Assembly (NCBI RefSeq): GCF_009914755.1
Contig: NC_060938.1
Length of the DNA: 64,000 nt
Strand: one strand, 5' to 3'
DNA from: the human T2T-CHM13v2.0 reference genome, Homo sapiens
Shown: piece after piece, positions 2,668 through 61,354 of the stretch
How positions within the stretch are numbered: position 1 is the first letter of the stretch
How the letters are laid out: each line of letters begins with the position of its first letter
Notes under the pieces: generated by a model
What the model was told of the DNA's origin: nothing
The model's input: only the letters and a program-made list of their open reading frames with translations
Database searches by the model: none
Made by a program: the position numbers and the translations under genes

Positions 2668-3065
2668 TGTTAAATTAAGTTTAGCCTAACGCTGCCTCTT
2701 TACATATTTGAAGTTCTGTCTAAAGGTTTTTCTGGACATAGTGAACTGTAACCTAACTGGAGGTGTAAACAGACTGTAAAATACTCTTGTGGCAATCACT
2801 GAGTCTTGGCCGGTCAAAGGTGGCCAACTGGTCCAACGGTGTTCAAATAAGGCAAATGCCGAGCTGTAACCAATCCAGCTGTTTCTGTACCTCACTTCCA
2901 GTTTTTGTCCATTACTTTCCTTTTACTGTCCATAAATCTTCCACTACATGGCTATATTGGAGTCTCTCTGAACCTATTCTGGTTCAGGAGTTGCCCGATT
3001 TGTGAATCATTCTTTGCTCAATTAAATTCTGTGAAATTAATTGGTCTAAGGTTTTTCTTTTAATA
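2668..3065 (+). mobile_element. MER57-type solo LTR (ERV1)
   Basis: Starts TGTTAAATTAAGTTTAGCCTAA as in the MER57 consensus; 4-bp TSD CTCC at 2664-2667 and 3066-3069. Confidence 0.85.
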
Positions 3066-3633
3066 CTCCAGAAGAAGGGGAGTGTTCTGAGGGGGTCTTA
3101 TCTCTGCTGCTGTTTGGTCTTCAATATTTACAGGAAATCAGCTGCAGAAGTTGCAGTTGCAGGCAGTGTTGCTCAGGCTACAAAGCCACATTCCTCTCAA
3201 GGCTCTAGATAATTTGAAGTTCCAATAGCTTTAAGTCCCAATTATTTTAAGTTTGAATTTAATTTCACAACACTCACCCATACTCACACACACACACTCA
3301 CTCACAATTTTCTGACACCGGCTGGGTGTCCAATAATTTGGACACTACCCAGAGTTAGTGCAGACTCCACGGGCTGCTCCTCCTTCAGATGCCAGCCACA
3401 AGTGGGCTTCCCAGGCAACTGCACTTCTGTCCAATTTGGCTTCAAATTCAGGAGTTCCCATGATCTCCATTCAGGTTTGATAATCCGATAGGACAACTCA
3501 AAGACTCACAAAGTGTTATACTTCCAATTACAGTTTTGTATAAAAGATACAGCACAGGAACCACCAAATGGAAAAGGCACATAGGGCGAGGTCTGGGGCG
3601 GGGCAGCCACAGAGTCCCCATCACCTCTCCTCC

Positions 3634-15234: not shown

Positions 15235-15951
15235 CAGCTGGCCCTCCAACCTGTGGTTTCCACATCCACGGATTTAATCAAACATGGATCAAAAATATTC
15301 AAAGAAAAAAAGATGAAAAATAACAACACAACAATAAAAAATAATGTAAATTAAAATATAGTATAACAACTGTGTATATAGCATTTACATTGTATTAGGT
15401 ATTAGAAGTAACCTAGAAATGATTTAAAGCAGAGCTCCCCAACGTTTTTGGCACCAGCTTCATCCATGTCCCTGCAAAGAACATGATCTCATTCATTTTA
15501 ATGGCTGCATAGTATTCCATGGTGTATATGCACTGTATTTTTCCACGGATGGGATGGGGGATGGTTTCTGGGTGAAACTGTTCCACTTCAGATCATCAGG
15601 CATTAGATTCTCATAAGGAGCCTGCAACCGGGATCCCTTCCATGCACAGTTCACAATAGGGTTCTTGCTCCTATGAGAATCTAATGCTGCCACTGATCTG
15701 GCAGGAGGCAGAGCTCCAGTGGTGAAGCTCGCCCTCCCAATGCTTACCCCCTGCTGTGCGCCCCGGTTCCTACCAGTTCCCTGGCCCAGGAGTTGGGGAC
15801 CCCTCATTTAAAGTATACAGGAGGACGTGCATACGTTATAGGCAGATACTATGCCATTTCATATCAAGGACTTGAGCATCCTCAGATTTCGGTTTCTGAG
15901 GGGGTGGGGGGGTCTTGAAACCAACCCCCCACAGATACCAAGGGACAATTG
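15235..15951. mobile_element. Tigger3-like DNA transposon carrying a nested MER1B
   Basis: Terminal CAGCTGGCCCTCC... and ...GGACAATTG(TA); AT-rich Tigger body. It sits inside an MLT1-like remnant starting near 15143. Confidence 0.65.
15430..15805. mobile_element. MER1B (hAT-Charlie) with an internal L1 patch
   Basis: TIRs CAGAGCTCCCCAAC and GTTGGGGACCCCT; 8-bp TSD ATTTAAAG at 15422-15429 and 15806-15813. Confidence 0.85.
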
Positions 15952-16713
15952 TATTTCTCACTCAGGTGACCTGCCATCTGAGGCTCTTTGCAACAACTTG
16001 TGTATATTGCAATGCAGGCTGAAGGAGCAGCACCCATCTGGGGCATTCAGGCGGGAAGAGAAAGCAGAATCCATGACTGTTTCCCAAAGGTTCCACTCAG
16101 AGAAGGCAGGTGTCACTTCCCTTCACATCTCATTGGCTGAAACAGGTCACATGGCCAGGCCAGCCTCCAGTAGGATGGGAAGTCTAATCCTCCGGCAAGC
16201 ATGTGACCCACAGGGCAGGGTAGCCACCATTTTGAACAAGCATTATGTGAACAACCATCTCCTGCATCCCCAGTCCTCCTCTCTGCTGCACAAAGGGAAC
16301 AAGAGATGTCTTGGTCACCACTTGGCCTCACTGGGGACCCTCAGAGGCCCGATGTGTGTGGAGAGAGAGGGGACCAGCAGAAGAGGCATGGGGGCAGGGG
16401 ATGTATGGAATGAAGGGCCGAGACTCAAGATGGAAGGGAGGCTAGCACAGCTGCTGAGCTGCAGCCTGCCCGTTTATGGCTGAAGTGAGCCACCTGGCCA
16501 GGAGGACACTAGCTACTTTTTCATTGATGGGCTTTGAAGATGGTGACAGTGACAGATTCAGGTGATGGCGTCTTTCTGCTGGCTGCTCTAAAAAGAAGGC
16601 CACTTGGCCCCATCTCCAGAATAGGAACCATGAGACAGTGACAAATGCCCATACAGGAAGTGAGCTGCCCAGCACTCACCATCTGAGCCATTTACCCCAT
16701 GTTTCCCAGGTAG

Positions 16714-33024: not shown

Positions 33025-36000
33025 GCCTCACCAGCCCCATGTGGTAGGTGAGGGCACGGACTGCAGTGTCAGAACCGCCCAAGGCCACGTCCTAGCCTCA
33101 CCGCTTCCTAGCTCTGTGACCTTCAGTGAGCTACTGAGCTTCTCTGGGTCTCACAGTGGCGGTCACTTTCTCCAAGACCTCAGATCAAAGTTCCCAAACT
33201 TGCAGGGGAAATGGTGAACTTTGTAAGATTCTGATGTTGAAGGTGGTATTTTCTGGACAGTCTTGGAGATCCTTCTGTGGCACTCAGGGCTGTTGTCACT
33301 ACCAAGGTGTTACCCACCTCCCTTCCCCCCGTCCCCTCTGCTCCCAGAGAGAACAAAGTGTTTTTTCTCAATGGGTCCAGTCAAAGACATCTCCCCGGCC
33401 CTGCGGCGTGAGCAGGAAGCAGGTGGGATTGCTTTCCCCAACATGCACCTCTTTCCAGGGTGGCACCTTTACCCAGCATCTCCCCTGACTCCTTCCACCT
33501 CCCCTTCCCCTAAAAATCTCCCCAGCCTGGTTTCTCTTTAGCCTTCCCTGACACTTGGCAATTTGCAAATCTGTCCAATGTCTCCCCTTCTGTTTTGGCA
33601 TCTGAACCTATAAATAGCTCCCAGACAAAGTCCTGGCTGCATTGTGACAGTTTGTATGCTTGCACTGTATTCCTTTTCTCAGACTTTTAGAAAGCCTCAT
33701 CTACGCACTTGCTCAATACGAAGAGCAGCTTCCAAGAAAAGGAATCTTTTATTACAGCATGAACAGTGTAGTGGGGAGTCACCTCAGGGTAACATGCTGC
33801 TTGCAGCAACGACGAGCCCTGTGAAGCATGCGAGATGGTCCAGGCAAGGTCCTGGACCCAGGATGGTGAAAAGAAATGAGGTCTGGGCCCTGCTCTCTGG
33901 AAGCTTCGTCCAGGGCCAGAGCTGGGCCTGTAAATAAATCATGATGTGCTGTAATCAGCTGTAAAGTCAGCTGTGTGCCCAGTGCCCAGGCCAGTGGGAG
34001 GGGCCAGAAGTTCTGCCCAAGAAGGCCTCACCAAGGGATCACCTGGGGACTGCCCGATGACAGGGGAGATGGTGGCCCACAGGAAAGGCATCACTGCCGA
34101 CAGTGAGGCAGGGACACGCCGATTGCATTCCTGTAGGAGGCACTGGGACACCCTTCCTCCAGCCTGCACCTCCTCTCTCAACAAAAGGCACCTGCTATAC
34201 TGGCTGGCGGGCCATGGTCACAACTTGGCCACAGCCTTGGGCCAGTCACTTAGCCTTCCTGAGCCTCAGTTTCCTCACCTATTAAAGGTAGATAATGGAG
34301 TTGTCATTTTGATTAGAAGTACAGAGCCTGGCACAGTGAGCACTTATTAAATGGAAGATGACATTATTATTATTATTATTAAAACTTTGAAAACTGTAAC
34401 CCTCCATGACTCCTCAGGAGGCTCGAATTTACGCAAAGCCCAGTGCTGGGAATTTGGGAGAAGGAGGCAAACAATGACAGTTGCCATTGAATCAGAATCT
34501 GGATTCCAGAGAGCTCTAGAATGTAACTCTGGAAAGCACTCGGGCTGATCCCCTCTCTCAAGCTGATGATGTGCCACCTCTGGACCTCAGTTTCCCCATC
34601 TGTGCCATGGGGAGGGTGCAGAGCTATCCCTTAGAACCCTTCCATTCTGGCTTTCAGTGGTTCCCTGTCCAGGGCTGCAACCTGGGGCATTTGGAAGCAG
34701 CCTTGCTTGACCATGGCTGCTGAGTGCTCCCCATCACTTTCCCGTTGGCCTCCAGCAAAAGGCCAACTCAGGCAAACTCACTATGCCCTACTCTGCACTG
34801 CAAGCCTGCATCGCACTCGGCCCAGGGCCCTGGTGGGTGGAGACCAGGGCTAAGGAGGGATGATCTTACACTGAGAGCTGCCGACTGGACAGGTGTTGGA
34901 GCCTTACAGAGGGAGACTCAGGCAGGCTGGAAACATACAAACTCCAGGGCCAGCTCCAGAGGCAAAGGTGCCACCCCAGATCATCAGTAACAGCCAGCAA
35001 AAGAGAAAGGATGCTTTTTTTCAGCACATTTTCCCAATCGGCATCCTCTTCCAGCTCCCTGAACCCTAACTCACCCTTTGCCCTCCCCACCCTTCAGCCC
35101 CCTGCCCAGGTCTTGGAGATCTCTGTGCTGTCTTTTGTGGAGCAGCTGCTATCTTGCAGTCAGATCCTCTGTCGGGGAGGCCTTCAGCTTTTGTGCAACG
35201 ACCCAGAGGGTGTGGGAGGGGCTCAGTTACTCTTCTCCTCACCTGGCACTTAGAGAAAGCAAGTCTCAAGAGTCTCATGGTATGTGGTTGGTGGACCCAG
35301 GGGCCTGTGCCCGGTCTGTGCTGTCCAGCTTTGGGCTCTGCCTGGAGCAAAAACAAGAGCTTGCCTGTGCCGTGTTGCGGTCCTTACATGGTAGCGAATC
35401 TCAGAGAACACAGGAGCCACTCAGGCTGGCATGGGGTTGTCTGCTCTTCTCACTTTTGGCAGCTGCTACCCTCTGCTGGTACCAGCAGTGCTGGCAGCCC
35501 TGGTCTGGCAGCACCTTTTCCTCAGGCAGGAAAGGGTGGTTCTCCAACATCACCTCAAAGCCAGTGGGTGCCAGGGCTGGGCCTGGAACCAGCGGGTCCC
35601 TGGGACTCCAAAGAAATCGCTATCTTCCCCACTTCTACCCCAGGAACACAAAGCAATTTCCATCTGTTTCAGAAAATCGTGCCTTTGGATAGTAAGCCCT
35701 GTGACGGTAGCAAACATTCCTTTCTCCACCTCAGCCACAAACTGGCCAAGTGGTGGTTCCCATGGCAACTGCGGTGTTGCTGGGCAGCCGTGGACCCTGG
35801 CCAAAATGTAACTATGTCCTTCAAAATGGGGAAGGAGCCTGCCCCTTTCAGGGGCCTGTAGGATGGCCCACAGGCTGGCCAAGGTGGGTGGGGGTCCATG
35901 GAAGAGTGGGCATGGCCCTGAAGGGCCTCACTTCCCCATCCCCAGCCCATGGGGCCCTGCAGGCGCCCCCCCTCCCACTCCCCAGCTGGGAACCAGTCCC

Positions 36001-42726: not shown

Positions 42727-43910
42727 TGTAGTCGCTTCTTATGGCTGCCACTGCAAATTACACAAACTAGGAGCCTTAGAGCAACATAAACTCATTCTCT
42801 CACAGTTCTGGAGGCCAGAAATCGGAAATCAAGGCGTGGACAGGCTTGGTTCCTTCTGGAGACTGCGGAAGCATCTGTTCCATGCCTCCCTCCTGTATTC
42901 CGGTGGTTGCTGCCAATCTTTGGCATTCCTTGGCTGGCATTCCTTGCATCACTGCAATCTCCATCTCCAGCTTCCCATGGCATTCCCTTCGCTGGGTCTG
43001 TGTCCCATGCCCTCACATGACCTTCTTTTTTTTTGGAGACAGAGTCTCGCTCTATCCCCCAGGCTGGAGTGCAGTGGCACGATCTCACCTCTGCCTCCCA
43101 GGTTCAAGCGATTCTCATGCCTCAGCCCCCCGAGGCACCTGCTACCACTCCTGGCTAATTTTTTTTATTTCTAGTAGAGACAGGTTTGACCATGTTGGCC
43201 AGTCTGGTCTCAGACTCAGGTGATCCACCCGCCTCGGCCTCCCAAAGTGCTTGGATTACACGTGTGAGCCATCGCAGCCAGCCCATCACATGGCCTTCTT
43301 ATGAGGACACCAACCGTTGGATTTAGGGCCCACTCTAATGCAGTATGAGGTCAGCTTGGTTACATCTACAAAGAATCTATTTCCAAATAAGGTCATATTC
43401 ACGTGTGTTAGAGATTCACACGTATTCACATGTATCACATTCACATATCTTTTGCAGGAACACAAGTCAATCCTCAACAGGTGGGTACTTTACTACCCCT
43501 GTTGTGTTCGTCTGTTGTTGCATTGCTATAAAGAAAGAGACTGGGTAATTTGTAAGAAAAGAAGTTTAATTGACTGTAGTTCTGCAGGCTGTACAGGAAG
43601 CATGATGCTGGTATCTGCTCAGCTTCTGAGGAGGCCTCAGGAAACTTACAATCACGGTTTAAAGGAAAGGGGGAACAAGGTGTCTCACGTGGTGGGAGCA
43701 GAGCAAGGTGGGGGGCAGGGGCCACACACTTTTAAACAAGCAAATCTCGTGAGAACTCTATCAGAGAACAGCACCGAGGGGATGGTGCTAACCCATTCAT
43801 GAAGGACCCACCCCCATGATCCCATCACCTCCCACCAGGCCCCACCTCCAACACTGGGGATTACAATTGCACATGAGATTTGGGTGGGGACACAGATCCA
43901 AACCATATCA
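42727..43910. mobile_element. MLT1C-like LTR (~42727-43475, with Alu 43025-43283 on -) followed by an MST-type LTR (~43505-43910), inside a MIR
   Basis: TTCTCACAGTTCTGGAGGCCAGAA (MLT1); CCCACCTCCAACACTGGGGATTACAATT...CAAACCATATCA (MST). Confidence 0.7.
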
Positions 43911-53499: not shown

Positions 53500-53798
53500 T
53501 GCCAGTTTTGGTAGACAACATATAACAGTAAGTGTACATACAAATAAACACATCTAGACGTGTATACACACACATAAATGAAAATCCAGTAGCTCGGAAC
53601 CTTAGCCATGAGATAGCAATACAAGCTTACTGGTTTTACTTTACCCCAATAGATAAGCCAATGAAGGCTATGAACCAAAATTTCGGGTAAAGCAGTTTGG
53701 TTGTTAAAGGCCAGACCTCCCCAGACTCCAAAGAGTGCTGGAGCCAAACAGTACCAAAGGAGGGCATCACACATTAACCAGGCTCCTTGCTCAGAACA

Positions 53799-54178
53799 GC
53801 AGCACAAGTGGGATCCATGCAACACCATCCCACTTTCCCAGTAGACAGTAAACTCCAGATTCTAAACAATATGGGGGCCAAGCAGCCATTGCAACTGCAA
53901 GAGAAAATTCTAAGGAGGGCTTAGTACTAGACCTCATAACCTCTGCCAAGAGCATCCACTTTGGGGAGGTTGAGGTCTACAGGATCCCCCAGAGCATCCT
54001 CCTGTGGGCTCCAATCTTAGAGTGTCAGATGTCTCTGACCTTAGGTGGGCACTGGCACCACTTTGCATGTGTTCCCTCCAGAGCCTGCTATGAGCTTTCC
54101 TTTGGTACCTGGGTGTAATCCCTGACTTTTAGCATCCTTATAATTTGATAAGGCCATGCCTTCCCATCCTTCCTGTTC
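53799..54178. repeat. Left copy of ~380-bp direct duplication flanking the inner provirus
   Basis: Matches 59980-60358 with 12 substitutions and 1 indel by hand count. Confidence 0.95.
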
Positions 54179-54605
54179 TGTTAGAAACAAATTTTCAGTG
54201 CCACAAAGTGAACCCAGCACTCAGGCAAAAGTTTTCTCAGCAAGGCAATTTACTTCTGTAGAAGGGCGCTTCCTGCATGCAAGGCAGAGGCAAGGGGGAG
54301 CATGCAAAACAAAGGAGAACAGGATTTTCTTATCCCTAACGCAGACCCTGTTCCTGTGTCTTCCCCCTGTGGGCTGGGGTCAGACCGCACAACCTAGGCT
54401 AATTCCGATTGTCTACAGTTGACATCATCAAAGGAGGCAAGGGTGGGCCTTTGACAGGAAGCACAGGTATAGTACATTTTGGGGTGTTTGGGCACAGCAG
54501 AGAGAGGGAGGGCTGATAGATGAATGGGTATGATTACCTTTTAGAATAGAACAAAGAACCAGGCACAGAAACTCTTTGAAGAGGAACTATTTGTGGTCAA
54601 CAACA
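54179..54605 (-). repeat. 3' LTR (LTR10-like) of inner provirus
   Basis: TG...CA ends; PPT AAGAGGAGGAAAT at 54618-54606; variant poly(A) signal AGTAAA at 54254-54249. Confidence 0.92.
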
Positions 54606-54622
54606 ATTTCCTCCTCTTGAAT

Positions 54623-56620
54623 TTATACATGTTCCGCTTTAAACCTATCTAATATGATTCGGATTTCGTGTTCGTTCACGGGGAAGAATTTGTTACTATA
54701 GGATTGGGAAGAACTAGGGAAGGTTTTGTTACTAGCTGTCTCTATAAGTCTTTGGACTAGTCCACGAATGCAGGGCATGATGCAGCATCCAACAAGAATA
54801 AGCACAGCTATTGCGATTGCGAGAGAGGTAACAATAGAGGCCATGAGTCCTTTCCATTTACCAAACCATTGCCCTAACCATCCTGTGAAAGGGTCAGTTA
54901 TCCCAGAATTTGTGGCTAATTCATCTGATAAGGAGGTAAGACCTTGTAAAGCTTTTGTAATTGTTCCATCAGGAGCTGTATTGTTGGGAATGTAGGTGCA
55001 GCATTGGGTTCCTATCATAACACAAACTCCACCTTTTTCTGCTAATATCATATCTAAGGCCATTCTGTTTTCCCAAGCCATTTGGCTAGTAGGCCCTAAT
55101 TGTTCAGCTATTCCTTGGATAGCATCCCTAGTGTAATTAATAAATCGCTGCTGGTTATAATAGATGTAATTTATCCAAGCTACATTTTTATTAATAGCTA
55201 CCATTGGAAATAATGATTCAAATCCTGCAGCTACTGGGTCTCGGGCTTTGAATCTATCAGGTACCCCCTGTGGGACTCCAATTTCATCTACATAGACATG
55301 AGAGTCGAAAGATCCTTGAGGGGCCTCTCTTGTTTTACGGCGTTGTGGTTTCTTTTTTTCTGGTTGTTGAAATGCCAGGGTGAAAGGGATGGCCAATTGA
55401 ATTAGAGCACAAGTACCACTCCAGTTACTTGGCAGAGTGTCTAGCAGGTGACCACCACAATACCACCATACATCAGCTCGGGCATGAACAAGTGCAGACT
55501 GATTGGTAAGCTCTTGGAAAGACTTAAGCTCACTGCATCCCTTTAGGTCCCCAAGAAACTCCAAATTTTTTCCCTGTCGTGAGAGACAGGAAGTAAACTT
55601 GGCATCTGGAGATGGAGGCTGGATGGCCCTCGGGGGCTCACCCTCAAGGTGTTGAGTTTCAGGGAATAGCACAGAGAGAGTTCGACAGAATTCACTATCC
55701 CAGGCTGTAGGGTGTTGGAAAAGAGCCACCATGCAGCCCATGCCCGGTTGGTCAGAAGACCATCCAAGTGGAAAGGGGACGACTTGGGCCTCTGGCCTAC
55801 CTTGCGCACAAGCGTAACAGTCGCTTTTGTTTAGACTGCGAACGGAATATTCAATCCATTCCATCCAGGCATTTGTTTCTTTGTATCCTGTTTCAATTGT
55901 CAGTGTTTGTTTTAAATTTTTAACCTCTACAATAGCTACTTTGCTTTTGTCATTAGATGAAGAGACAATGGTCTGGTTAGCAGGTGTAGAAGAGGATAGA
56001 CGTGGAGATATGAGGGATGGAGATGTACTGAGGTGCAACTCGAAGAATCCTATGGGGTCTTTCCCTCTTACATCTGCTCCCATACCATAGAAACGGTTTA
56101 GGGTGGGGGAGGAATCTTGGAGAGTTGGGATGGTGATGGAAATTTGCACCGGGTTACATTGGTTATATCGACAATTGGGAGGGGCAATTCCTTTAGTAAA
56201 ATGGATATAGGGCTTTAGAACCGCTAGCGGGAAATCCTGTGAGGGGACCCAATCTTGACGTTGAGTGGTCCAAACGACATATTCCCAAGTATGACAAAAC
56301 GGAAAGCTAAACAAGGTAGAAGCATCTGCTTCGGAGGGGCAGAGATATTTCTCTGCTGCTGCAAGCTGTCTCTGGCTTTGGAGATCCCCACAAGGTATAA
56401 CTAAACAAGCATCGAAGGTAATGGTCTGGGGTGAGTCTGATCTAGTTACGTTAATAATGAGGTGGCTAGCAAGAGCACAAGGAAAGAAGAAGGAGTAACA
56501 GAATAGATGAAAGAGAATTAAACTTTCCTTAGCTTTAGTTTGGTAGGATTTTCCCCTGGGACTATGGCCCATGACGCTGGAGGGGGCGGTGCTTTCTTGA
56601 CTCGGGTGTGATGGGTCCAT
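54623..56620 (-). CDS. ERVPb1: Intact gamma-type retroviral envelope, 665 aa (EnvP(b))
   Basis: Open 665-codon ORF with signal peptide (LILFHLFCYSFFFPCALA), CXXC (CYAC), furin site RKTR (55339-55328), ISD ENRMALDMILAEKGGVC, CX6CC (CVMIGTQCC) and TM helix. Length, PBS-Pro and antisense RIN3-intron position fit ERVPb1. Confidence 0.95.
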   Translation of the reverse strand: MDPSHPSQESTAPSSVMGHSPRGKSYQTKAKESLILFHLFCYSFFFPCALASHLIINVTRSDSPQTITFDACLVIPCGDLQSQRQLAAAEKYLCPSEADASTLFSFPFCHTWEYVVWTTQRQDWVPSQDFPLAVLKPYIHFTKGIAPPNCRYNQCNPVQISITIPTLQDSSPTLNRFYGMGADVRGKDPIGFFELHLSTSPSLISPRLSSSTPANQTIVSSSNDKSKVAIVEVKNLKQTLTIETGYKETNAWMEWIEYSVRSLNKSDCYACAQGRPEAQVVPFPLGWSSDQPGMGCMVALFQHPTAWDSEFCRTLSVLFPETQHLEGEPPRAIQPPSPDAKFTSCLSRQGKNLEFLGDLKGCSELKSFQELTNQSALVHARADVWWYCGGHLLDTLPSNWSGTCALIQLAIPFTLAFQQPEKKKPQRRKTREAPQGSFDSHVYVDEIGVPQGVPDRFKARDPVAAGFESLFPMVAINKNVAWINYIYYNQQRFINYTRDAIQGIAEQLGPTSQMAWENRMALDMILAEKGGVCVMIGTQCCTYIPNNTAPDGTITKALQGLTSLSDELATNSGITDPFTGWLGQWFGKWKGLMASIVTSLAIAIAVLILVGCCIMPCIRGLVQRLIETASNKTFPSSSQSYSNKFFPVNEHEIRIILDRFKAEHV

Positions 56621-57280
56621 CCTTTCTCGGCAGTTCAGACTGCAGTTTCAGTTGTTAGGAGCACTAGATATGGTCCCTCCCAGGACGGTTCAAGTTTCTC
56701 TTCTTTCCAGCTCTTATTGAGGCCGTAGTCTCCGGGCCGGTGCTGATGGACTGGAAACTCAAGAGGCAGCGTTTGCGCTAAGAGACCTTTAGTCCTAAGG
56801 GAAGATAAGGTAGAAGACAGACCAAGTATATAATTCCTAAGGAACTGATCTTTGGTCTCAAAAGTGGGACTGTCACTAGTGGAACTTAAATATGGTAACC
56901 TATAGAGCATTTCATAAGGGGATAGGCCAACATCTGTTTGAGGGGCAGTTCGGATCCTGAGTAGAGCGATGGGGAGACACTTAGCCCAGGGTAATGGACT
57001 TTCTGAAATTAACTTAGATGATTTTTTAAAGTCTGATTCATCCTTTCTATTCTTCCTGATGAGGATGGATGCCAGGGGTCATGATACTCCCATTTGATTC
57101 CTAAAGTTTGAGTAAGCCCTTTAATGATATTTGCGGTAAAGTGATTCCTGTTGTCTGAGTCAGTGTTTTCTACTGGCCCGAACTGAGGTATTATCTTCTC
57201 TAGTAATACTTTAACCACATTTTTAGCTGTTGCGGGGAGGGGAATGGCTTCAACTCAATGGGTGAGGTGGTCTACTATTA
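56518..57280 (-). pseudogene. pol remnant: integrase core and C-terminus only
   Basis: IVDHLTH*VEAIP..VVKVLLEKIIPQFG..HPSSSGRIERMNQTLK..WEGPYLVLLTT with in-frame stops. The frame ends at 56518 and overlaps the env start. Confidence 0.9.
56957..56986 (-). promoter_or_regulatory. Candidate env splice acceptor
   Basis: Minus strand GGCTAAG (branch-like) TGTCTCCCCATCGCTCTACTCAG|G, within integrase where gammaretroviral env acceptors usually lie. Confidence 0.55.
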
Positions 57281-58908
57281 TGCCATGAGCAGGACAGTTT
57301 CTTTTTCCTTCCCCAACTCAGGGCATTCTCTTTTGAAGTGGCCTGCTCTTCCACATTTGAAGCACCTATCCTGTCCTCCCACTCTCTCATTTCCAGGATT
57401 ATTTGACCTTGCTCCCCCATACTCTTTAGAGGGCCTGGTAGCTGAGGGTCTGGGTCCGCTAGTTGGAGGCTTGGGTTTGGACCCTTTATAATTCCTGGTC
57501 CCCTGGAGTCTCTGTTTAGAAGCATATGGCTTGAAGCCGTCTGTTGGAAGGTGGATAGCATAAGTTTCATTTTTTGTTTTTGCTTTTCTTAATCTCTCCT
57601 CACATATACTTTTTGGGCTTCTCCTAGGGGTTCCTCTCTGGACCGGTTTTTTGTTTTTCTAGTTTCTGCAACTTCTTTGCTATATCTGGCCAGCTATTTG
57701 TGACAAAATGTAGCTTTAATATTCCTTGCCCAAGAGGGTCTTCTGGATCCAAATCTGCATATTTCCTTATTTGTTCCCTTAGTCTTTCTAGAAATTTCAT
57801 GGGCCCTTCATCTTTTTCCTGTTGTATGTCAAATGTTCGGGAAAGATTCTGAGCATGGGGCACTGACTCCCGAATTCCTTTAATTATCATTTCCCTAAGA
57901 TCTTTCATATTTTCCCAGCAGACTGCATTGTTATTATCCCATTGAGGATCTTGGGCTGGGAATTTCTGGTCTGCTGCAGGAACATTTTGGCCAGGAGAAT
58001 GTTCACATTCCCAAATTGTCATAGCAGCCCTGTGAATCATCCCCCTTTCTTCCCCTGAGAAGAGGATACCCAGGATGGACATTAATTCGGCCCAGGTATA
58101 TAACTGGGGGCCTAGGAATTGATCTGCTACCCCATATGGGTCATCTAGCAGTGGCTTAAGTTCTTTCTTTAAACCTTGAACCTCTGAACTAGTCAAGGGA
58201 GCATTTACAAAGCCAGTAGCTCCTCCTGCCTGGGACACCTCTCTCAAAGGGAAGAGAGTTGGAGCTGATTCCTTAGAGGCAGAGGGGAAAGGAAGATTTT
58301 GAATATCCTTCTTACATGGTAGTCCCTTTAGGGAAGGATACTTAGGCTGACAAGGAACAGACTCATGGGGTGGTGGTAATTCCCAAGAGTCAGAGTATAA
58401 GGGGGAGGAATAATAGGAGTAGCAGAAGGATCTGGGACCGAGTCCAGGGTAGCAGCAGCTGCCTGTGGAGGGGACAGGTCAAGTTGGGGGGAATTAAATG
58501 GGGAAAGGTGGTTTAGAGGGTTCCAGGAGTTGGGATCCCTCTGCCTAGGGGTTGGTTTTACTACGCCTTCCCCTGTATTCTTTAGGGGAAAGAGGAGAAC
58601 AGGTTGTTTTCTCCAGAAGAGGGCATAGTCTCTTCCCGCAAGACAAGACTTTTGTCATTCACATACTGAGTTAAAAGTTAACAGACCCAATCCTCATCTG
58701 ATCCATATTTTGGCAAGAAGATGGCAGGTTTGCGGATGGGTTCCTTGGCCCAAATGAAACAACAATATTTTATCATCTGTTGCTTTTTCTTGTGCCTATT
58801 CCTCTCATTCTCCTTCCAATATTTCAGCATGAGACCTAGAGGACTATCAGAGGGGATCTGACTATCCCCGTCCTTACCTTTCCCTGTTGTACTAGGAGTG
58901 TTTCCCAT
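57281..58908 (-). pseudogene. gag, disrupted by stops and frameshifts
   Basis: MGNTPS myristoylation start (58908), PPPY late domain (~58400), capsid MHR IQQEKDEGPMKFLERLRE, zinc knuckle CFKCGRAGHFKREC (57364-57323). Confidence 0.92.
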
Positions 58909-59346
58909 CTTGGAAGTTTTGGATGCCCCCTTGACTGTGTGTGTGGCCCAATCTCTCTTACTAGAGTTCTCTTGCCTTCCCTTTTCTCTAGAGGCTCAAC
59001 CCCCATTAATGGAGGTTTCTTGCACTCCTTTCCATTCACTTCATCCTATCTGGCCACTTCCTTCACAGGAAATTAGGTCCCTCTTAGCATTGGCATGCAG
59101 GTATAAGCCCCATGGCAGGATCTGCCCTAAGCCATATGAAGATGAGGTGACCACAGAACCACAGAACCACAGACAGGACCCACTCACCCCGGACAGCAGT
59201 AATGCCTATCACCATTCACACAAGCAGCACCGCAAGCAGTGGTGCCTATGATCATTCACACACACTTTCAACCTCCAGGATATCCCGACCACCAATGAAA
59301 TACTTCACCGCCCCCACAGCTTTTCTTACTTTGGTCTTGTGCGCAA

Positions 59347-59530: not shown

Positions 59531-59548
59531 ATCCTGGGCAAGGCCCCA
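59531..59548 (-). other. Primer-binding site, tRNA-Pro
   Basis: TGGGGCCTTGCCCAGGAT vs canonical TGGGGGCTCGTCCGGGAT (14/18), 3 nt from the 5' LTR. Confidence 0.8.
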
Positions 59549-59551
59549 GAT

Positions 59552-59979
59552 TGTTAGAAACAAATTGTCAGTGCTGTGAAGTGAAACCCAGCATTCAGGC
59601 AAAAGTTTTCTCAGCAAGGCAATTTACTTCTATAGAAGGGCGCTTCCTGCATGCAAAGCAGAGGCAAGGGAGAGCTTGCAAAACAAAGGAGACCAGGAGT
59701 TTTTATCCCTGAAGCAGACCCTGTTCCTGTGTCCTCCCCCTGTGGGCTGGGGTCGGACCACACAATCTAGGCTAATTCCGATTGGCTACTGTTGACATCA
59801 TCAAAGGAGGCGAGGGTGGGCGTTTGACAGGGAGAACAGGTACAGTATATCTTGGGTGTGTTTAGGCACAGTGGAGATAGGGAGGGCTAATAGATGAATG
59901 GGTAAGATTACCTTTTAGAATAGAACAAAGAACCAGGAACCAAAACCCTTTGAAGAGGAACTATTTGTTCTTAACAACG
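59552..59979 (-). repeat. 5' LTR (LTR10-like) of inner provirus, likely env promoter
   Basis: About 90% identical to 54179-54605; CCAAT at 59785-59781, GATAAAAA at 59707-59700, PU.1-like AAGAGGAACT at 59953-59962. Confidence 0.9.
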
Positions 59980-60358
59980 GCAGCACAAGTGGGATCCATG
60001 CAATGCCATCCCACTTTCCCAGTAGAGAGTAAACTCCAGATTCTAAACAATTTGGGGGTCAAGCAGCATTGCAACTGCAAGAGAAAATTCTAAGGAGGGC
60101 TTAGTACTAGACCTCATAACCTCTGCCAAGAGCATCCCCTTTGGGGAGGTTGAGGTCTGCAGGATCCCCCAGAGCATCCTCCTGTGGGCTCCAATCTTAG
60201 AGTGTCAGATGTCTCTGACCTTAGGTGGGCACTGGCGCCACTTTCCATGTGTTCCCTCCAGAGCCTGCTATGAGCTTTCCTTTGGTACCTGGGTGTAATC
60301 CCTGACTTTTAGCATCCTTATAATTTGATAAGGCCACGCTTTCCCATGCTTCCTGTTC
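59980..60358. repeat. Right copy of ~380-bp direct duplication
   Basis: See 53799-54178. Confidence 0.95.
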
Positions 60359-60854
60359 CGTGAACTTTAATGATAGGAACTGGAGGCTGGGTGGGTTTCT
60401 TTTGCCCTTAGCCAGTTGAATAGGAGAAGGGAAGAATTTAGCATAAGAAAAGAAGGTTTAAGTCCTGAAACATGCGAGTTTGCTCTGAGCTGTGCCACAT
60501 GTAGGGATCAGGGACCACACTCAGAAAATATTTTTTTTTAAAAAAAGAATCCCTTCCCATTCTGGACAGGGCAATTATTCCCATTCATTCCTAGGCCTTC
60601 AGGCAACACTGGGGAGTGACCCCAGCCAATTATCCTCAACTTCCAAGGAGCTACTGGGAAACAGCCACTGAAAGACGGAAAAAGAAAGAGAGAGAAAAAA
60701 AAATGAAAAAGACCCTGGTCCCTTAAGTGAACCAGGCAGTGGCATTTAGGCTTCTCCACATGGAAACGCCTTAGTTTCACTGGCCACGGCCAGAAACCTG
60801 CAGTTGCTTTCGTATTTAGGCGCTGCCCACCAAGGGTCCTGAGTCGGAAAGGAA

Positions 60855-60902
60855 AAGAGAGAGAGAGAGAGAGAGAGAGATTGATTGATTGATTGATTGA
60901 TT
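60855..60902. repeat. (GA)n(GATT)n compound microsatellite in MER61 leader
   Basis: Direct inspection. Confidence 0.9.
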
Positions 60903-60972
60903 CCCCTGTATGGAGCAGAAAGGAAAAAGAGAAAGGAGAAAAAGGAATCCCAAACTTTGGACTTACCTCTTC

Positions 60973-60990
60973 CTCCCCGCTGGCTCGCCA
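60973..60990 (-). other. Primer-binding site, tRNA-Arg, of MER61 element
   Basis: TGGCGAGCCAGCGGGGAG vs TGGCGAGCCAGCCAGGAG (16/18), followed by a strong donor GAG|GTAAGT (GT at 60966-60965). Confidence 0.8.
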
Positions 60991-60995
60991 AAATA

Positions 60996-61354
60996 TGTCA
61001 CCAGTGGAGGGTGTCCAGGTTCTTGGCATCTTGAACAAAGAATTAGACAAAACGCACGAGCAAAACAAGGAAGGAATGAAGGGGTTTACTGAAAATGAAA
61101 GTACACTCCACAGTGTGGGAGCAGGCCCAAGCATAGGGCCTCAAGGGCACCGTTACAGAATCTGGGGGAGTTTAAATACCCTCTAGAGGATTCCATTGGT
61201 TACTTGGGGTACACCCTATGTAAATGAAGAGTATGAAGTAAAGATACAAAGTCATTTACTTGGCCTGCGCCCTATGGAGAGGATATTTCCTGTCATAGCT
61301 GAAGTGCGAACTGGCCTTACGTTCCCTGCCTCCAGACCCTATTTTCCTGCCCCA
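60996..61354 (-). repeat. 5' LTR of MER61 element
   Basis: Paralog of 47903-48258; CCAAT at 61199-61195 and TATTTAAA at 61178-61171 on the minus strand. Confidence 0.88.

What the first reader, a model, noticed from the sequence alone, without database searches (positions are those of the whole stretch)
54623..56620. Intact 665-aa env in an otherwise ruined provirus (co-opted ERVPb1) antisense in RIN3
Seen: env keeps its signal peptide, CXXC, RKTR, ISD, CX6CC and TM with no stop in ~2 kb, while gag and IN carry several stops or frameshifts and the LTRs differ by ~10%. Established: EnvP(b) is one of the few coding HERV env genes and is reported as fusogenic and conserved in simians, so the gene itself is not new. 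Inference: purifying selection for a host role. To my knowledge its receptor and physiological function remain unclear.
Basis: partly seen in the sequence, partly recalled or inferred. Interest (0 to 1): 0.7.

Follow-up and report, generated by a model that had tools for sequence, protein, structure and literature searches.

The report
This is the already described human gene ERVPb1/EnvP(b)1, an ancient viral envelope protein kept readable inside a decayed provirus, although its amino-acid sequence has changed about as fast as that of its three dead sister copies.

Summary
An ATG-to-TAA frame of 665 codons lies at 54623-56620 on the minus strand. [quoted passage not shown] The gene is in print as a fusogenic, simian-wide, expressed env with no known receptor (PMC555746, PMC7683403, PMC8123466), so it is already known.

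The provirus is ruined. Gag lies in pieces in three frames, about 2.75 kb (protease to mid-integrase) is missing, and the LTRs differ by 9.4%.

Two things I did not find in the papers I could read:

- **Replacement rate.** Compared with the three dead human HERV-P(b) env copies, this env has 0 stops and 0 frameshifts (theirs: 6/9/11 and 4/1/5). Yet it has as many replacement changes (70 versus 47/56/60) and as many silent ones (22 versus 21/21/24). Most of them arose after the simian radiation. Only the TM core looks constrained, and the cytoplasmic tail is accelerated.
- **Flanking duplication.** The provirus sits between two copies of a 384-bp piece of host DNA that are far more alike than the LTRs.

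The parts
54623..56620 (-). EnvP(b)1/ERVPb1 env ORF, 665 aa. Signal stretch aa 34-51; inferred receptor-binding domain 51-207; CXXC 268-271; furin site RKTR 428-431; ISD-like 508-533; CX6CC 533-541; membrane span 592-618; cytoplasmic tail 619-665.
56794..56796 (-). Splice acceptor: pyrimidine tract then ...cttag|G, so exon 2 would start at 56794, 174 nt before the ATG. PMC8123466 reports 172 bp by 5'-RACE.
   Evidence: Sequence; paper sections read. The match to the published exon is my inference.
56638..57254 (-). Integrase remnant in two frames: rve tail 57012-57254 and MLVIN_C 56638-57078.
57280..57281 (-). Internal deletion junction. About 2.75 kb (protease, RT, RNase H, first part of integrase) present in the chr5 and chr18 copies is missing here.
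57281..58995 (-). Gag remnants in three frames: N-terminal piece with MGN... start (58681-58995), capsid Gag_p30 (57627-58478), nucleocapsid zinc knuckle (57281-57658).
59182..59331 (-). Candidate exon 1 of the published spliced mRNA. Donor GGG|GTGAGT with last exon base 59188, 2568 nt upstream of the ATG. A 144-bp exon would start near 59331, downstream of the 5' LTR.
   Evidence: Sequence; PMC8123466. The placement is my inference and was not checked against the RACE sequence.
59531..59548 (-). Primer-binding site, tRNA-Pro-like (TGGGGCCTTGCCCAGGAT), 3 nt after the 5' LTR.
   Evidence: The 14 of 18 matches are to the tRNA-Pro PBS as I recall it. PMC555746 states PBS-Pro for the family.
59552..59976 (-). 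5' LTR, TG...CA
54607..54618 (-). Polypurine tract (aagaggaggaaa) between the env stop and the 3' LTR
54179..54605 (-). 3' LTR, TG...CA
53795..54178 (.). Copy A of the 384-bp duplicated host segment, abutting the 3' LTR
59976..60358 (.). Copy B of the duplicated host segment, abutting the 5' LTR (boundary uncertain by 1-3 nt because of a shared gtt)
53507..53794 (.). Left part of the older dispersed repeat (about 1.66 kb in all) into which the provirus went. It continues at 60359-61351.

Best explanation
The ORF is the human gene ERVPb1 (EnvP(b)1), the env of a HERV-P(b) provirus that entered an intron of RIN3, in antisense, before the split of New and Old World monkeys. It encodes a gamma-type retroviral envelope glycoprotein. 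A signal peptide takes it into the ER. A furin-like protease cuts at RKTR (428-431) into SU and TM, which stay linked through the CXXC and CX6CC cysteines. Binding of a still unknown cell-surface partner by the N-terminal domain (51-207) is thought to release TM, which refolds and fuses membranes. Shown by others: cell-cell fusion that needs the furin site, a processed protein in human tissues, a crystal structure of the N-terminal domain, translation in early haematopoietic and macrophage-like cells, and a spliced mRNA that starts downstream of the 5' LTR. Shown here: its identity; the anatomy of the provirus; selection that has kept the frame open; a replacement rate for the whole protein that equals that of its dead paralogs; a deficit of change in the TM core; an excess in the cytoplasmic tail. 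Inferred: what selection protects is expression of a cleavable, membrane-anchored SU-TM with a working TM core. Because TM lies downstream in the same frame, any stop in SU is lethal to the function, while most SU surface residues and the tail are free to change or are driven to change. The physiological process (macrophage or trophoblast fusion, immune modulation, receptor blockade) is not settled.
For: [quoted passage not shown] Fold class: TLV_coat; the TM part matches syncytin-2 and syncytin-1 structures; motif positions. Only open copy: of 94 matches to this protein in the human genome, the window's own is the only one spanning the query without a stop. The chr9 locus that looked open is split into ORFs of 227 and 327 aa. 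Frame kept by selection: the paralog env copies carry 6/9/11 stops and 4/1/5 frameshifting indels against 0 and 0 here, P 0.0012 and 0.036. Coverage is at least 99% in 183 of 188 simian assemblies (Table S6 of PMC13461226). Orthologs of 664-666 aa exist in gibbon, macaque and owl monkey. TM-centred constraint: among the four orthologs, variable sites make up 16% of the TM ectodomain against 30-38% in the SU parts and 53% in the tail. The TM core 477-575 has 3 lineage-specific replacements against 6/5/8 in the paralogs. Literature read: fusion in 5 of 9 cell lines (PMC555746, passages). All 11 orthologs tested were fusogenic (one failed in one of the cell lines), there was no fusion without the furin site, protein was detected in placenta, ovary and thymus, and the cellular factors were unidentified (PMC7683403, Results part 1 and Discussion). 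Translation in a macrophage lineage, LPS induction and a non-LTR start with a 144-bp exon 1 (PMC8123466, Results and legends). Galectin-1 raises EnvP(b) fusion (PMC10747188, passages).
Against: Averaged over the protein there is no sign of amino-acid constraint on the human lineage: 70 replacement to 22 silent changes against 163 to 66 pooled in the paralogs (odds ratio 1.29, 95% CI 0.74-2.25). The rate-based test rejects omega 0.75 (P 0.0002 with all singletons, 0.03 with outgroup-polarised ones). That is unusual for a protein whose receptor binding and fusion are supposedly maintained. The 20 residues after the furin site are not hydrophobic (mean Kyte-Doolittle -0.47), so there is no canonical N-terminal fusion peptide, as PMC555746 also notes. 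Published mRNA levels are very low (PMC8123466). No receptor and no loss-of-function phenotype is known. [quoted passage not shown]
Confidence: 0.9

Rival explanations
1. The gene is kept for a conflict-type or immune role (blocking a receptor used by exogenous retroviruses, or signalling through the TM/ISD) rather than as a housekeeping fusogen. SU and the tail change fast because they are under recurrent positive selection, not merely tolerated drift. This overlaps with the best explanation and differs in what drives the high replacement rate.
For: The replacement rate is at or above the pseudogene rate (70 versus 47/56/60; NG86 dN higher in pairs with this env). Change is steady through time: of 65 replaced codons, 6 predate the simian radiation, 15 are catarrhine-shared, 13 hominoid-shared, 21 human or great-ape only and 10 homoplastic. 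The tail shows 15 replacements against 6/4/5 (two-sided P 0.005) and the SU linker 9 against 4/4/2 (P 0.03). The tail differs at 38% of sites between human and macaque against 8% in the TM ectodomain. Expression in macrophage-lineage cells and LPS induction are reported (PMC8123466).
Against: Site-to-site heterogeneity among the four orthologs is weak (157 sites with a single change, 45 complex; the comparison with an even spread is my hand estimate, not a computed test). That fits broad tolerance better than a few hot sites. Fusion and its unknown host factors are conserved between human, Old World and New World monkey cells (PMC7683403), which argues against a fast-moving receptor interface. 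The domain tests are post hoc on small counts. No silent-site data for the orthologs were available to me.
Confidence: 0.3
2. The frame is open by chance in a neutrally decaying provirus.
For: The replacement-to-silent ratio and the total change are indistinguishable from the dead paralogs.
Against: There are 0 nonsense changes where about 6.5 are expected and 0 frameshifts where about 3.3 are expected on this lineage alone. All three same-age paralogs are broken (LTR pairs 10.0, 11.1 and 10.0% against 9.4% here). Gag and pol in the same provirus are broken. The frame is kept in 183 of 188 simian assemblies.
Confidence: 0.01
3. The gene was functional in early simians but is relaxed and on its way out in the line to humans.
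For: On the human lineage even the TM ectodomain has 12 replacements against 11/13/17 in the paralogs. Human mRNA levels are very low (PMC8123466).
Against: The pace of replacement is about the same in the three successive intervals (15, 13, 21). Gibbon, macaque and Aotus branches change at least as much. The frame is intact in all great-ape assemblies but one (Gorilla beringei 78.9%). Human protein is detected, processed and the most fusogenic of those tested (PMC7683403).
Confidence: 0.04

Closest known systems
EnvP(b)1 / ERVPb1 (HGNC ERVPABLB-1), human 14q32 RIN3 intron
   Same: It is this gene. It is identical to the crystallised domain (6W5Y). Its length of 665 aa, the motifs, the PBS-Pro, the family of four proviruses and the RIN3 position are all as published (PMC555746, PMC7683403, PMC8123466).
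   Different: Nothing differs in the sequence. What I add is the comparison with the three dead paralogs and the flanking duplication.
Syncytin-2 (ERVFRD-1)
   Same: It is a gamma-type env captured before the simian radiation, with the frame kept in all simian clades, furin-cleaved and fusogenic. The TM parts are homologous (7OIX, E 5.7e-10).
   Different: Syncytin-2 is placenta-specific with a known receptor (MFSD2A, named in PMC10747188). EnvP(b)1 is expressed at low levels in many tissues and in macrophage-lineage cells, has no known receptor, and here shows no overall amino-acid constraint.
HERV-IP10-type env copies (called HERVIP10B3-like in PMC8123466)
   Same: They are the nearest env relatives in the human genome, at 44-77% amino-acid identity over dozens of loci.
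   Different: All carry stops. The chr9 copy is split into 227- and 327-aa ORFs.
Env-derived restriction factors and decoys (HERV-T env, suppressyn, Fv4-type; recalled, and HERV-T as summarised in PMC7683403)
   Same: They are captured env genes kept open by the host, in some cases for receptor blockade.
   Different: By the account in PMC7683403, HERV-T env has lost processing and fusion, whereas EnvP(b)1 keeps both. Interference has not been tested for EnvP(b)1 as far as I could find.

Membership tests
gamma-type retroviral Env (Pfam TLV_coat) | N-terminal signal sequence | tested here: met
   Hydrophobic stretch at aa 34-51; the crystallised domain starts at A51.
gamma-type retroviral Env (Pfam TLV_coat) | R-X-K/R-R cleavage site between SU and TM | tested here: met
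   RKTR at 428-431. It is needed for fusion according to PMC7683403.
gamma-type retroviral Env (Pfam TLV_coat) | CXXC in SU paired with CX6CC in TM | tested here: met
   CYAC at 268-271 and CVMIGTQCC at 533-541.
gamma-type retroviral Env (Pfam TLV_coat) | TM ectodomain with heptad/ISD region homologous to known gamma-type TMs, plus a membrane anchor | tested here: met
   TLV_coat matches 498-620, E 1.2e-11. Syncytin-1 and syncytin-2 structures match 496-628. The top hydropathy windows are at 591-604.
gamma-type retroviral Env (Pfam TLV_coat) | Hydrophobic fusion peptide directly after the cleavage site | tested here: not met
   Mean hydropathy of 432-451 is -0.47. The first hydrophobic patch is at 464-476. 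The same remark appears in PMC555746. Fusion occurs nonetheless, so this is a variant within the class.
syncytin in the strict sense | Cell-cell fusion when expressed | not testable with these tools
   Reported positive (PMC555746, PMC7683403, PMC10747188).
syncytin in the strict sense | Placenta-specific expression | not testable with these tools
   Reported not met at the RNA level (PMC555746, PMC8123466). [quoted passage not shown]
syncytin in the strict sense | Open frame conserved over tens of millions of years | tested here: met
   Orthologs of 664-666 aa in gibbon, macaque and Aotus; Table S6 of PMC13461226.
syncytin in the strict sense | Amino-acid sequence under purifying selection | tested here: inconclusive
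   Not met for the whole protein against the pseudogene paralogs. Met for the TM core only, on small counts. No ortholog DNA was available for a codon model.
HERV-P(b) provirus | LTR-gag-pol-env-LTR with a tRNA-Pro primer site; family of four proviruses | tested here: met
   PBS at 59531-59548. The close LTR copies are this locus, pairs on chr5, chr3 and chr18, and one solo LTR on chr8. Pol is largely deleted here.

The most novel reading that the evidence does not exclude
EnvP(b)1 is a gene whose reading frame is under strong selection while its protein sequence, outside about 100 residues of the TM core, evolves at or above the rate of its own pseudogene paralogs. Its cytoplasmic tail evolves about three times faster. 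That would make it unlike the syncytins. It would point either to a function that needs little more than a cleaved, anchored TM, or to a long-running conflict acting on SU and the tail. The published label 'under purifying selection' would then need qualifying: by the NG86 count the pseudogene pairs themselves give dN/dS of 0.53-0.65, so a raw ratio below 1 proves little here.
Probability: 0.45. Interest if true: 0.6.

Novelty: already known. Interest (0 to 1): 0.35.

Why it matters
The gene is one of a handful of human genes of retroviral origin that can fuse cells, and its receptor and role are still open. The flagged observation adds nothing to what is in print. The within-genome control does matter for how the gene is thought about. 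If the protein outside the TM core is not constrained, then receptor screens built on a conserved SU surface may be aimed at the wrong part, as may arguments from 'conservation' to an essential fusogenic role. The tail and the TM core then become the places to look. The long flanking duplication bears on how this provirus was inserted. It also bears on LTR-based dating, because neighbouring repeats at one locus give ages about five-fold apart.

Tried and rejected
1. I first read the 384-bp flanking repeat as part of a permuted LTR or as a complete element captured whole. That is rejected. The other three proviruses and the solo LTR lack it. In six other genomic copies the homology runs on without a break into both outer flanks, so it is a piece from inside an older repeat of about 1.66 kb.

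2. The excess of env changes might have been an artefact of the three paralogs forming a clade. That is rejected by outgroup polarisation with ten HERV-IP-type env copies: 61 changes are derived in ERVPb1, and in only 5 does it keep the outgroup state.

3. A burst of replacements in the viral or co-option phase before the simian radiation is rejected. Only 6 of 65 replaced codons are shared by gibbon, macaque and Aotus.

4. A second intact env on chr9 was suggested by an 'open frame 683' entry. It is rejected, because that env is split into ATG ORFs of 227 and 327 aa.

5. Short target-site duplications in the family gave a mixed picture. The chr18 copy has a clean 4-bp repeat (TAAT). The chr8 solo LTR matches at 3 of 4 by my reading. 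The chr5 and chr3 copies show no clear match. The family rule therefore rests on little.

6. In the gag-region alignment the chr3 copy is misaligned around its own deletions (389 singletons, 15%). I do not rely on that region's rates.

7. The other long ORFs of the window (210, 198, 194 and 154 aa) have no Pfam match.

8. Aagaard et al. 2005 (Genomics 86:685), the source of the 'purifying selection' statement, is not held, so I do not know what ratio it reports. de Parseval 2005 (PMC1236922) does not cover this gene. The ribosome-profiling paper PMC10759522 names the gene only in its reference list.

10. I made no structure prediction or complex prediction. The N-terminal domain is already solved and no partner is known.
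Full report
**What is there**

On the minus strand an ATG-to-TAA frame of 665 codons runs from 56620 to 54623. It is by far the longest ATG frame in the 64-kb window: 6 frames reach 150 aa and the next longest is 210 aa.

The motifs are at these positions:
- hydrophobic signal stretch at residues 34-51
- CYAC at 268-271
- RKTR at 428-431
- an ISD-like stretch at 508-533
- CVMIGTQCC at 533-541
- membrane span at 592-618
- a 47-residue tail

Pfam TLV_coat matches residues 498-620.

**The provirus**

The LTRs are 54179-54605 and 59552-59976. Both run TG...CA and differ at 40 of 425 aligned bases plus 3 indels.

A tRNA-Pro-like primer site lies at 59531-59548, and a polypurine run at 54607-54618 lies between the env stop and the 3' LTR.

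Gag survives as pieces in three frames: an N-terminal piece, Gag_p30, and a zinc knuckle. Integrase survives as two pieces in two frames.

Between nucleocapsid and mid-integrase, at 57280, 2746 and 2770 bp present in the chr5 and chr18 copies are absent. Protease, RT and RNase H are therefore gone, not merely broken.

A strong splice acceptor (…cttag|G) would start an exon at 56794, 174 nt before the ATG. A consensus donor (GGG|GTGAGT) ends at 59188, 2568 nt upstream. These fit the published spliced mRNA: a 144-bp exon 1 about 2.5 kb upstream that does not start in the LTR, and an exon 2 starting 172 bp before the ATG (PMC8123466, Results and figure legends). The assignment is my inference.

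**What is known**

- PMC555746 (passages) named the family, found four proviruses with PBS-Pro, and showed fusion in five of nine cell lines with low, ubiquitous RNA.
- PMC7683403 (Results part 1 and Discussion) found 35 simian orthologs in the RIN3 locus, fusion by all 11 orthologs tested (one failed in one of the cell lines), loss of fusion without the furin site, processed protein in placenta, ovary and thymus, and the crystal structure. It calls the required cellular factors unidentified and the function unknown.
- PMC8123466 added New World monkeys, translation in early haematopoietic and macrophage-like cells, and LPS induction.
- PMC13461226, Table S6, lists query coverage for ERVPb-1 of at least 99% in 183 of 188 simian assemblies. 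The five exceptions are Gorilla beringei 78.9, Allochrocebus lhoesti 71.9, Papio hamadryas 83.8, Trachypithecus phayrei crepuscula 84.2 and Plecturocebus cinerascens 95.6. The authors warn about assembly quality.
- My searches found no paper that names a receptor.

The flagged finding is thus already known.

**A within-genome control**

The human genome holds three other HERV-P(b) proviruses (chr5, chr3, chr18) and one solo LTR (chr8). Their LTR pairs differ by 10.0, 11.1 and 10.0%, so they are the same age as this one.

Aligned to this env, the paralogs show the following against this copy:

| | chr5 | chr3 | chr18 | this copy |
|---|---|---|---|---|
| Identity to this env | 89.3% | 88.7% | 87.7% | – |
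| Stops in its frame | 6 | 9 | 11 | 0 |
| Frameshifting indels | 4 | 1 | 5 | 0 |

Among 94 matches to the protein elsewhere in the genome, none but the window's own spans it without a stop. One candidate on chr9 proved to be split. Given the paralogs' rates, the chance of no nonsense change on this lineage is 0.0012 and of no frameshift 0.036. The frame is therefore kept by selection.

**The surprise**

I counted changes private to each of the four copies over 643 codons ungapped in all four:

| | this env | paralogs |
|---|---|---|
| Replacement changes (paralog counts include their nonsense changes) | 70 | 47, 56, 60 |
| Silent changes | 22 | 21, 21, 24 |
| Nonsense changes | 0 | 4, 5, 7 |

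The odds ratio against the pooled paralogs is 1.29 (95% CI 0.74-2.25). A rate-based test rejects omega 0.5 (P 5e-10) and 0.75 (P 0.0002).

I then polarised the changes with ten HERV-IP-type env copies. That gives 48 replacement and 13 silent changes derived in this env, against 37 and 10, 53 and 10, and 48 and 6 in the paralogs. In only 5 cases does this env keep the outgroup state. With this smaller set omega 0.5 is still rejected by rate (P 3e-5) and 0.75 only weakly (P 0.03). The ratio-based odds ratio is 0.70 (0.33-1.46).

Nei-Gojobori values say the same. dS is 0.146-0.161 in all six pairs. dN is 0.101-0.119 in pairs with this env and 0.085-0.098 between pseudogenes. The pseudogene pairs themselves give dN/dS of 0.53-0.65.

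In the neighbouring integrase remnant and 3' LTR, this provirus's private changes are 3.8% and 3.4% of sites, against 4.9% in env. The gag-region figure in that call is unreliable because the chr3 copy is misaligned there.

**When the changes happened**

Protein orthologs from Nomascus, Macaca and Aotus (664-666 aa) were found and aligned. They differ from human at 72, 94 and 142 of 665 positions.

The 65 codons replaced on the human line fall as follows:
- 6 shared by all three other species
- 15 shared by the catarrhines
- 13 shared by the hominoids
- 21 human or great-ape only
- 10 with homoplastic patterns

The changes therefore did not come in a burst in the virus or at co-option. They came steadily through simian history. 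As a rough cross-check from recalled genome-wide divergences (about 5%, 6.5% and 11%), a frame with no amino-acid constraint would differ at about 9-10%, 13% and 21% of residues. Observed values are 10.8%, 14.1% and 21.4%. This part rests on recall and on three orthologs without DNA.

**Where the changes fall (boundaries corrected)**

| Region | Variable sites among the four orthologs | Private replacements on the human line vs paralogs |
|---|---|---|
| N-terminal part with the signal stretch (1-50) | 38% | 5 vs 5/2/3 |
| SU (receptor-binding domain, linker, C-terminal part) | 30-38% | linker: 9 vs 4/4/2 (P 0.03) |
| TM ectodomain | 16% | 12 vs 11/13/17 |
| TM core 477-575 | 4, 4 and 7 differences to human in 99 aa (gibbon, macaque, Aotus) | 3 vs 6/5/8 |
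| Membrane span | 44% (mostly Aotus) | 0 vs 0/3/3 |
| Cytoplasmic tail | 53% | 15 vs 6/4/5 (two-sided P 0.005) |

These domain tests are post hoc on small counts. The picture is a constrained TM core, an SU that changes at about the pseudogene rate, and a tail that changes faster.

Because TM is translated after SU from one frame, selection for TM alone would keep the whole frame open. This is my preferred reading. Recurrent positive selection on SU and the tail is the rival.

A gamma-type tail normally holds a fusion-inhibiting R peptide removed by the viral protease (recalled). This provirus has no protease, so remodelling of the tail would make sense. I did not test that.

**The flanks**

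Directly outside the two LTRs lie two direct copies of a 384-bp segment, at 53795-54178 and 59976-60358. The segment is not part of the virus, because the other proviruses and the solo LTR lack it. It is an internal piece of an older dispersed repeat of about 1.66 kb whose homology continues at 53507-53794 and 60359-61351.

The provirus is thus bracketed by a 384-bp duplication of its target rather than by the 4-bp repeat seen at the chr18 copy. I see no short repeat at the junctions. Both LTR ends are the processed TG...CA ends.

One explanation is that the two viral ends were joined to the two target strands 384 bp apart instead of a few bases apart. That is an inference from the anatomy.

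The two copies differ at only 13 of 383 bases, against 40-42 of 425 for the LTRs. In columns never seen as CpG in any family member the figures are 5 of 331 against 29 of 383 (P 1e-4), and the other three LTR pairs give 24-31 of about 380. Either the flanking copies were homogenised by gene conversion long after insertion, or the duplication is much younger than the provirus. I cannot tell which without other primates.

The word "duplication" does not occur in PMC555746 or PMC7683403. The legend of Figure 1C in PMC555746 mentions MER51B boxes at these loci, but I could not see the figure.

**Verdict**

The identification is right and already in print. The two side results are leads, not conclusions.

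Noticed in passing
53795-54178 and 59976-60358: A 384-bp direct duplication of host DNA brackets the provirus in place of a short target-site repeat. The segment is an internal piece of an older repeat of about 1.66 kb. Its two copies differ by 3.4% (1.5% outside CpG-prone columns), while the LTRs next to them differ by 9.4% (7.6%).
   Followed up: partly
54626-54766 (env residues 619-665): The cytoplasmic tail carries 15 lineage-specific replacements against 6, 4 and 5 in the dead paralogs. It differs at 23-38% of residues between human and gibbon, macaque or Aotus, the fastest part of the protein.
   Followed up: partly
57280: A clean internal deletion of about 2.75 kb removes protease, RT, RNase H and the first part of integrase relative to the chr5 and chr18 copies. 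The chr3 copy has its own, different deletions.
   Followed up: yes
L039 (G000:C9:100190500-100199500), ORFs 1519-2502 and 2860-3543 minus strand: A HERV-IP-type provirus on chr9 keeps two long env ORFs (227 aa for the N-terminal part, 327 aa for the C-terminal part with furin site, ISD and anchor), but not one continuous frame.
   Followed up: partly
PMC13410904 (2026 review), section 2.4: The review says that fusogenic activity of ERVPb1 has not been reported and cites Blaise 2005 for it. That paper and PMC7683403 report fusion.
   Followed up: yes
window 15851-16483, 35277-35861, 43338-43802, 60538-61134: These are the other ATG ORFs of 154-210 aa in the window. None has a Pfam match, and they are taken as chance frames.
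   Followed up: yes
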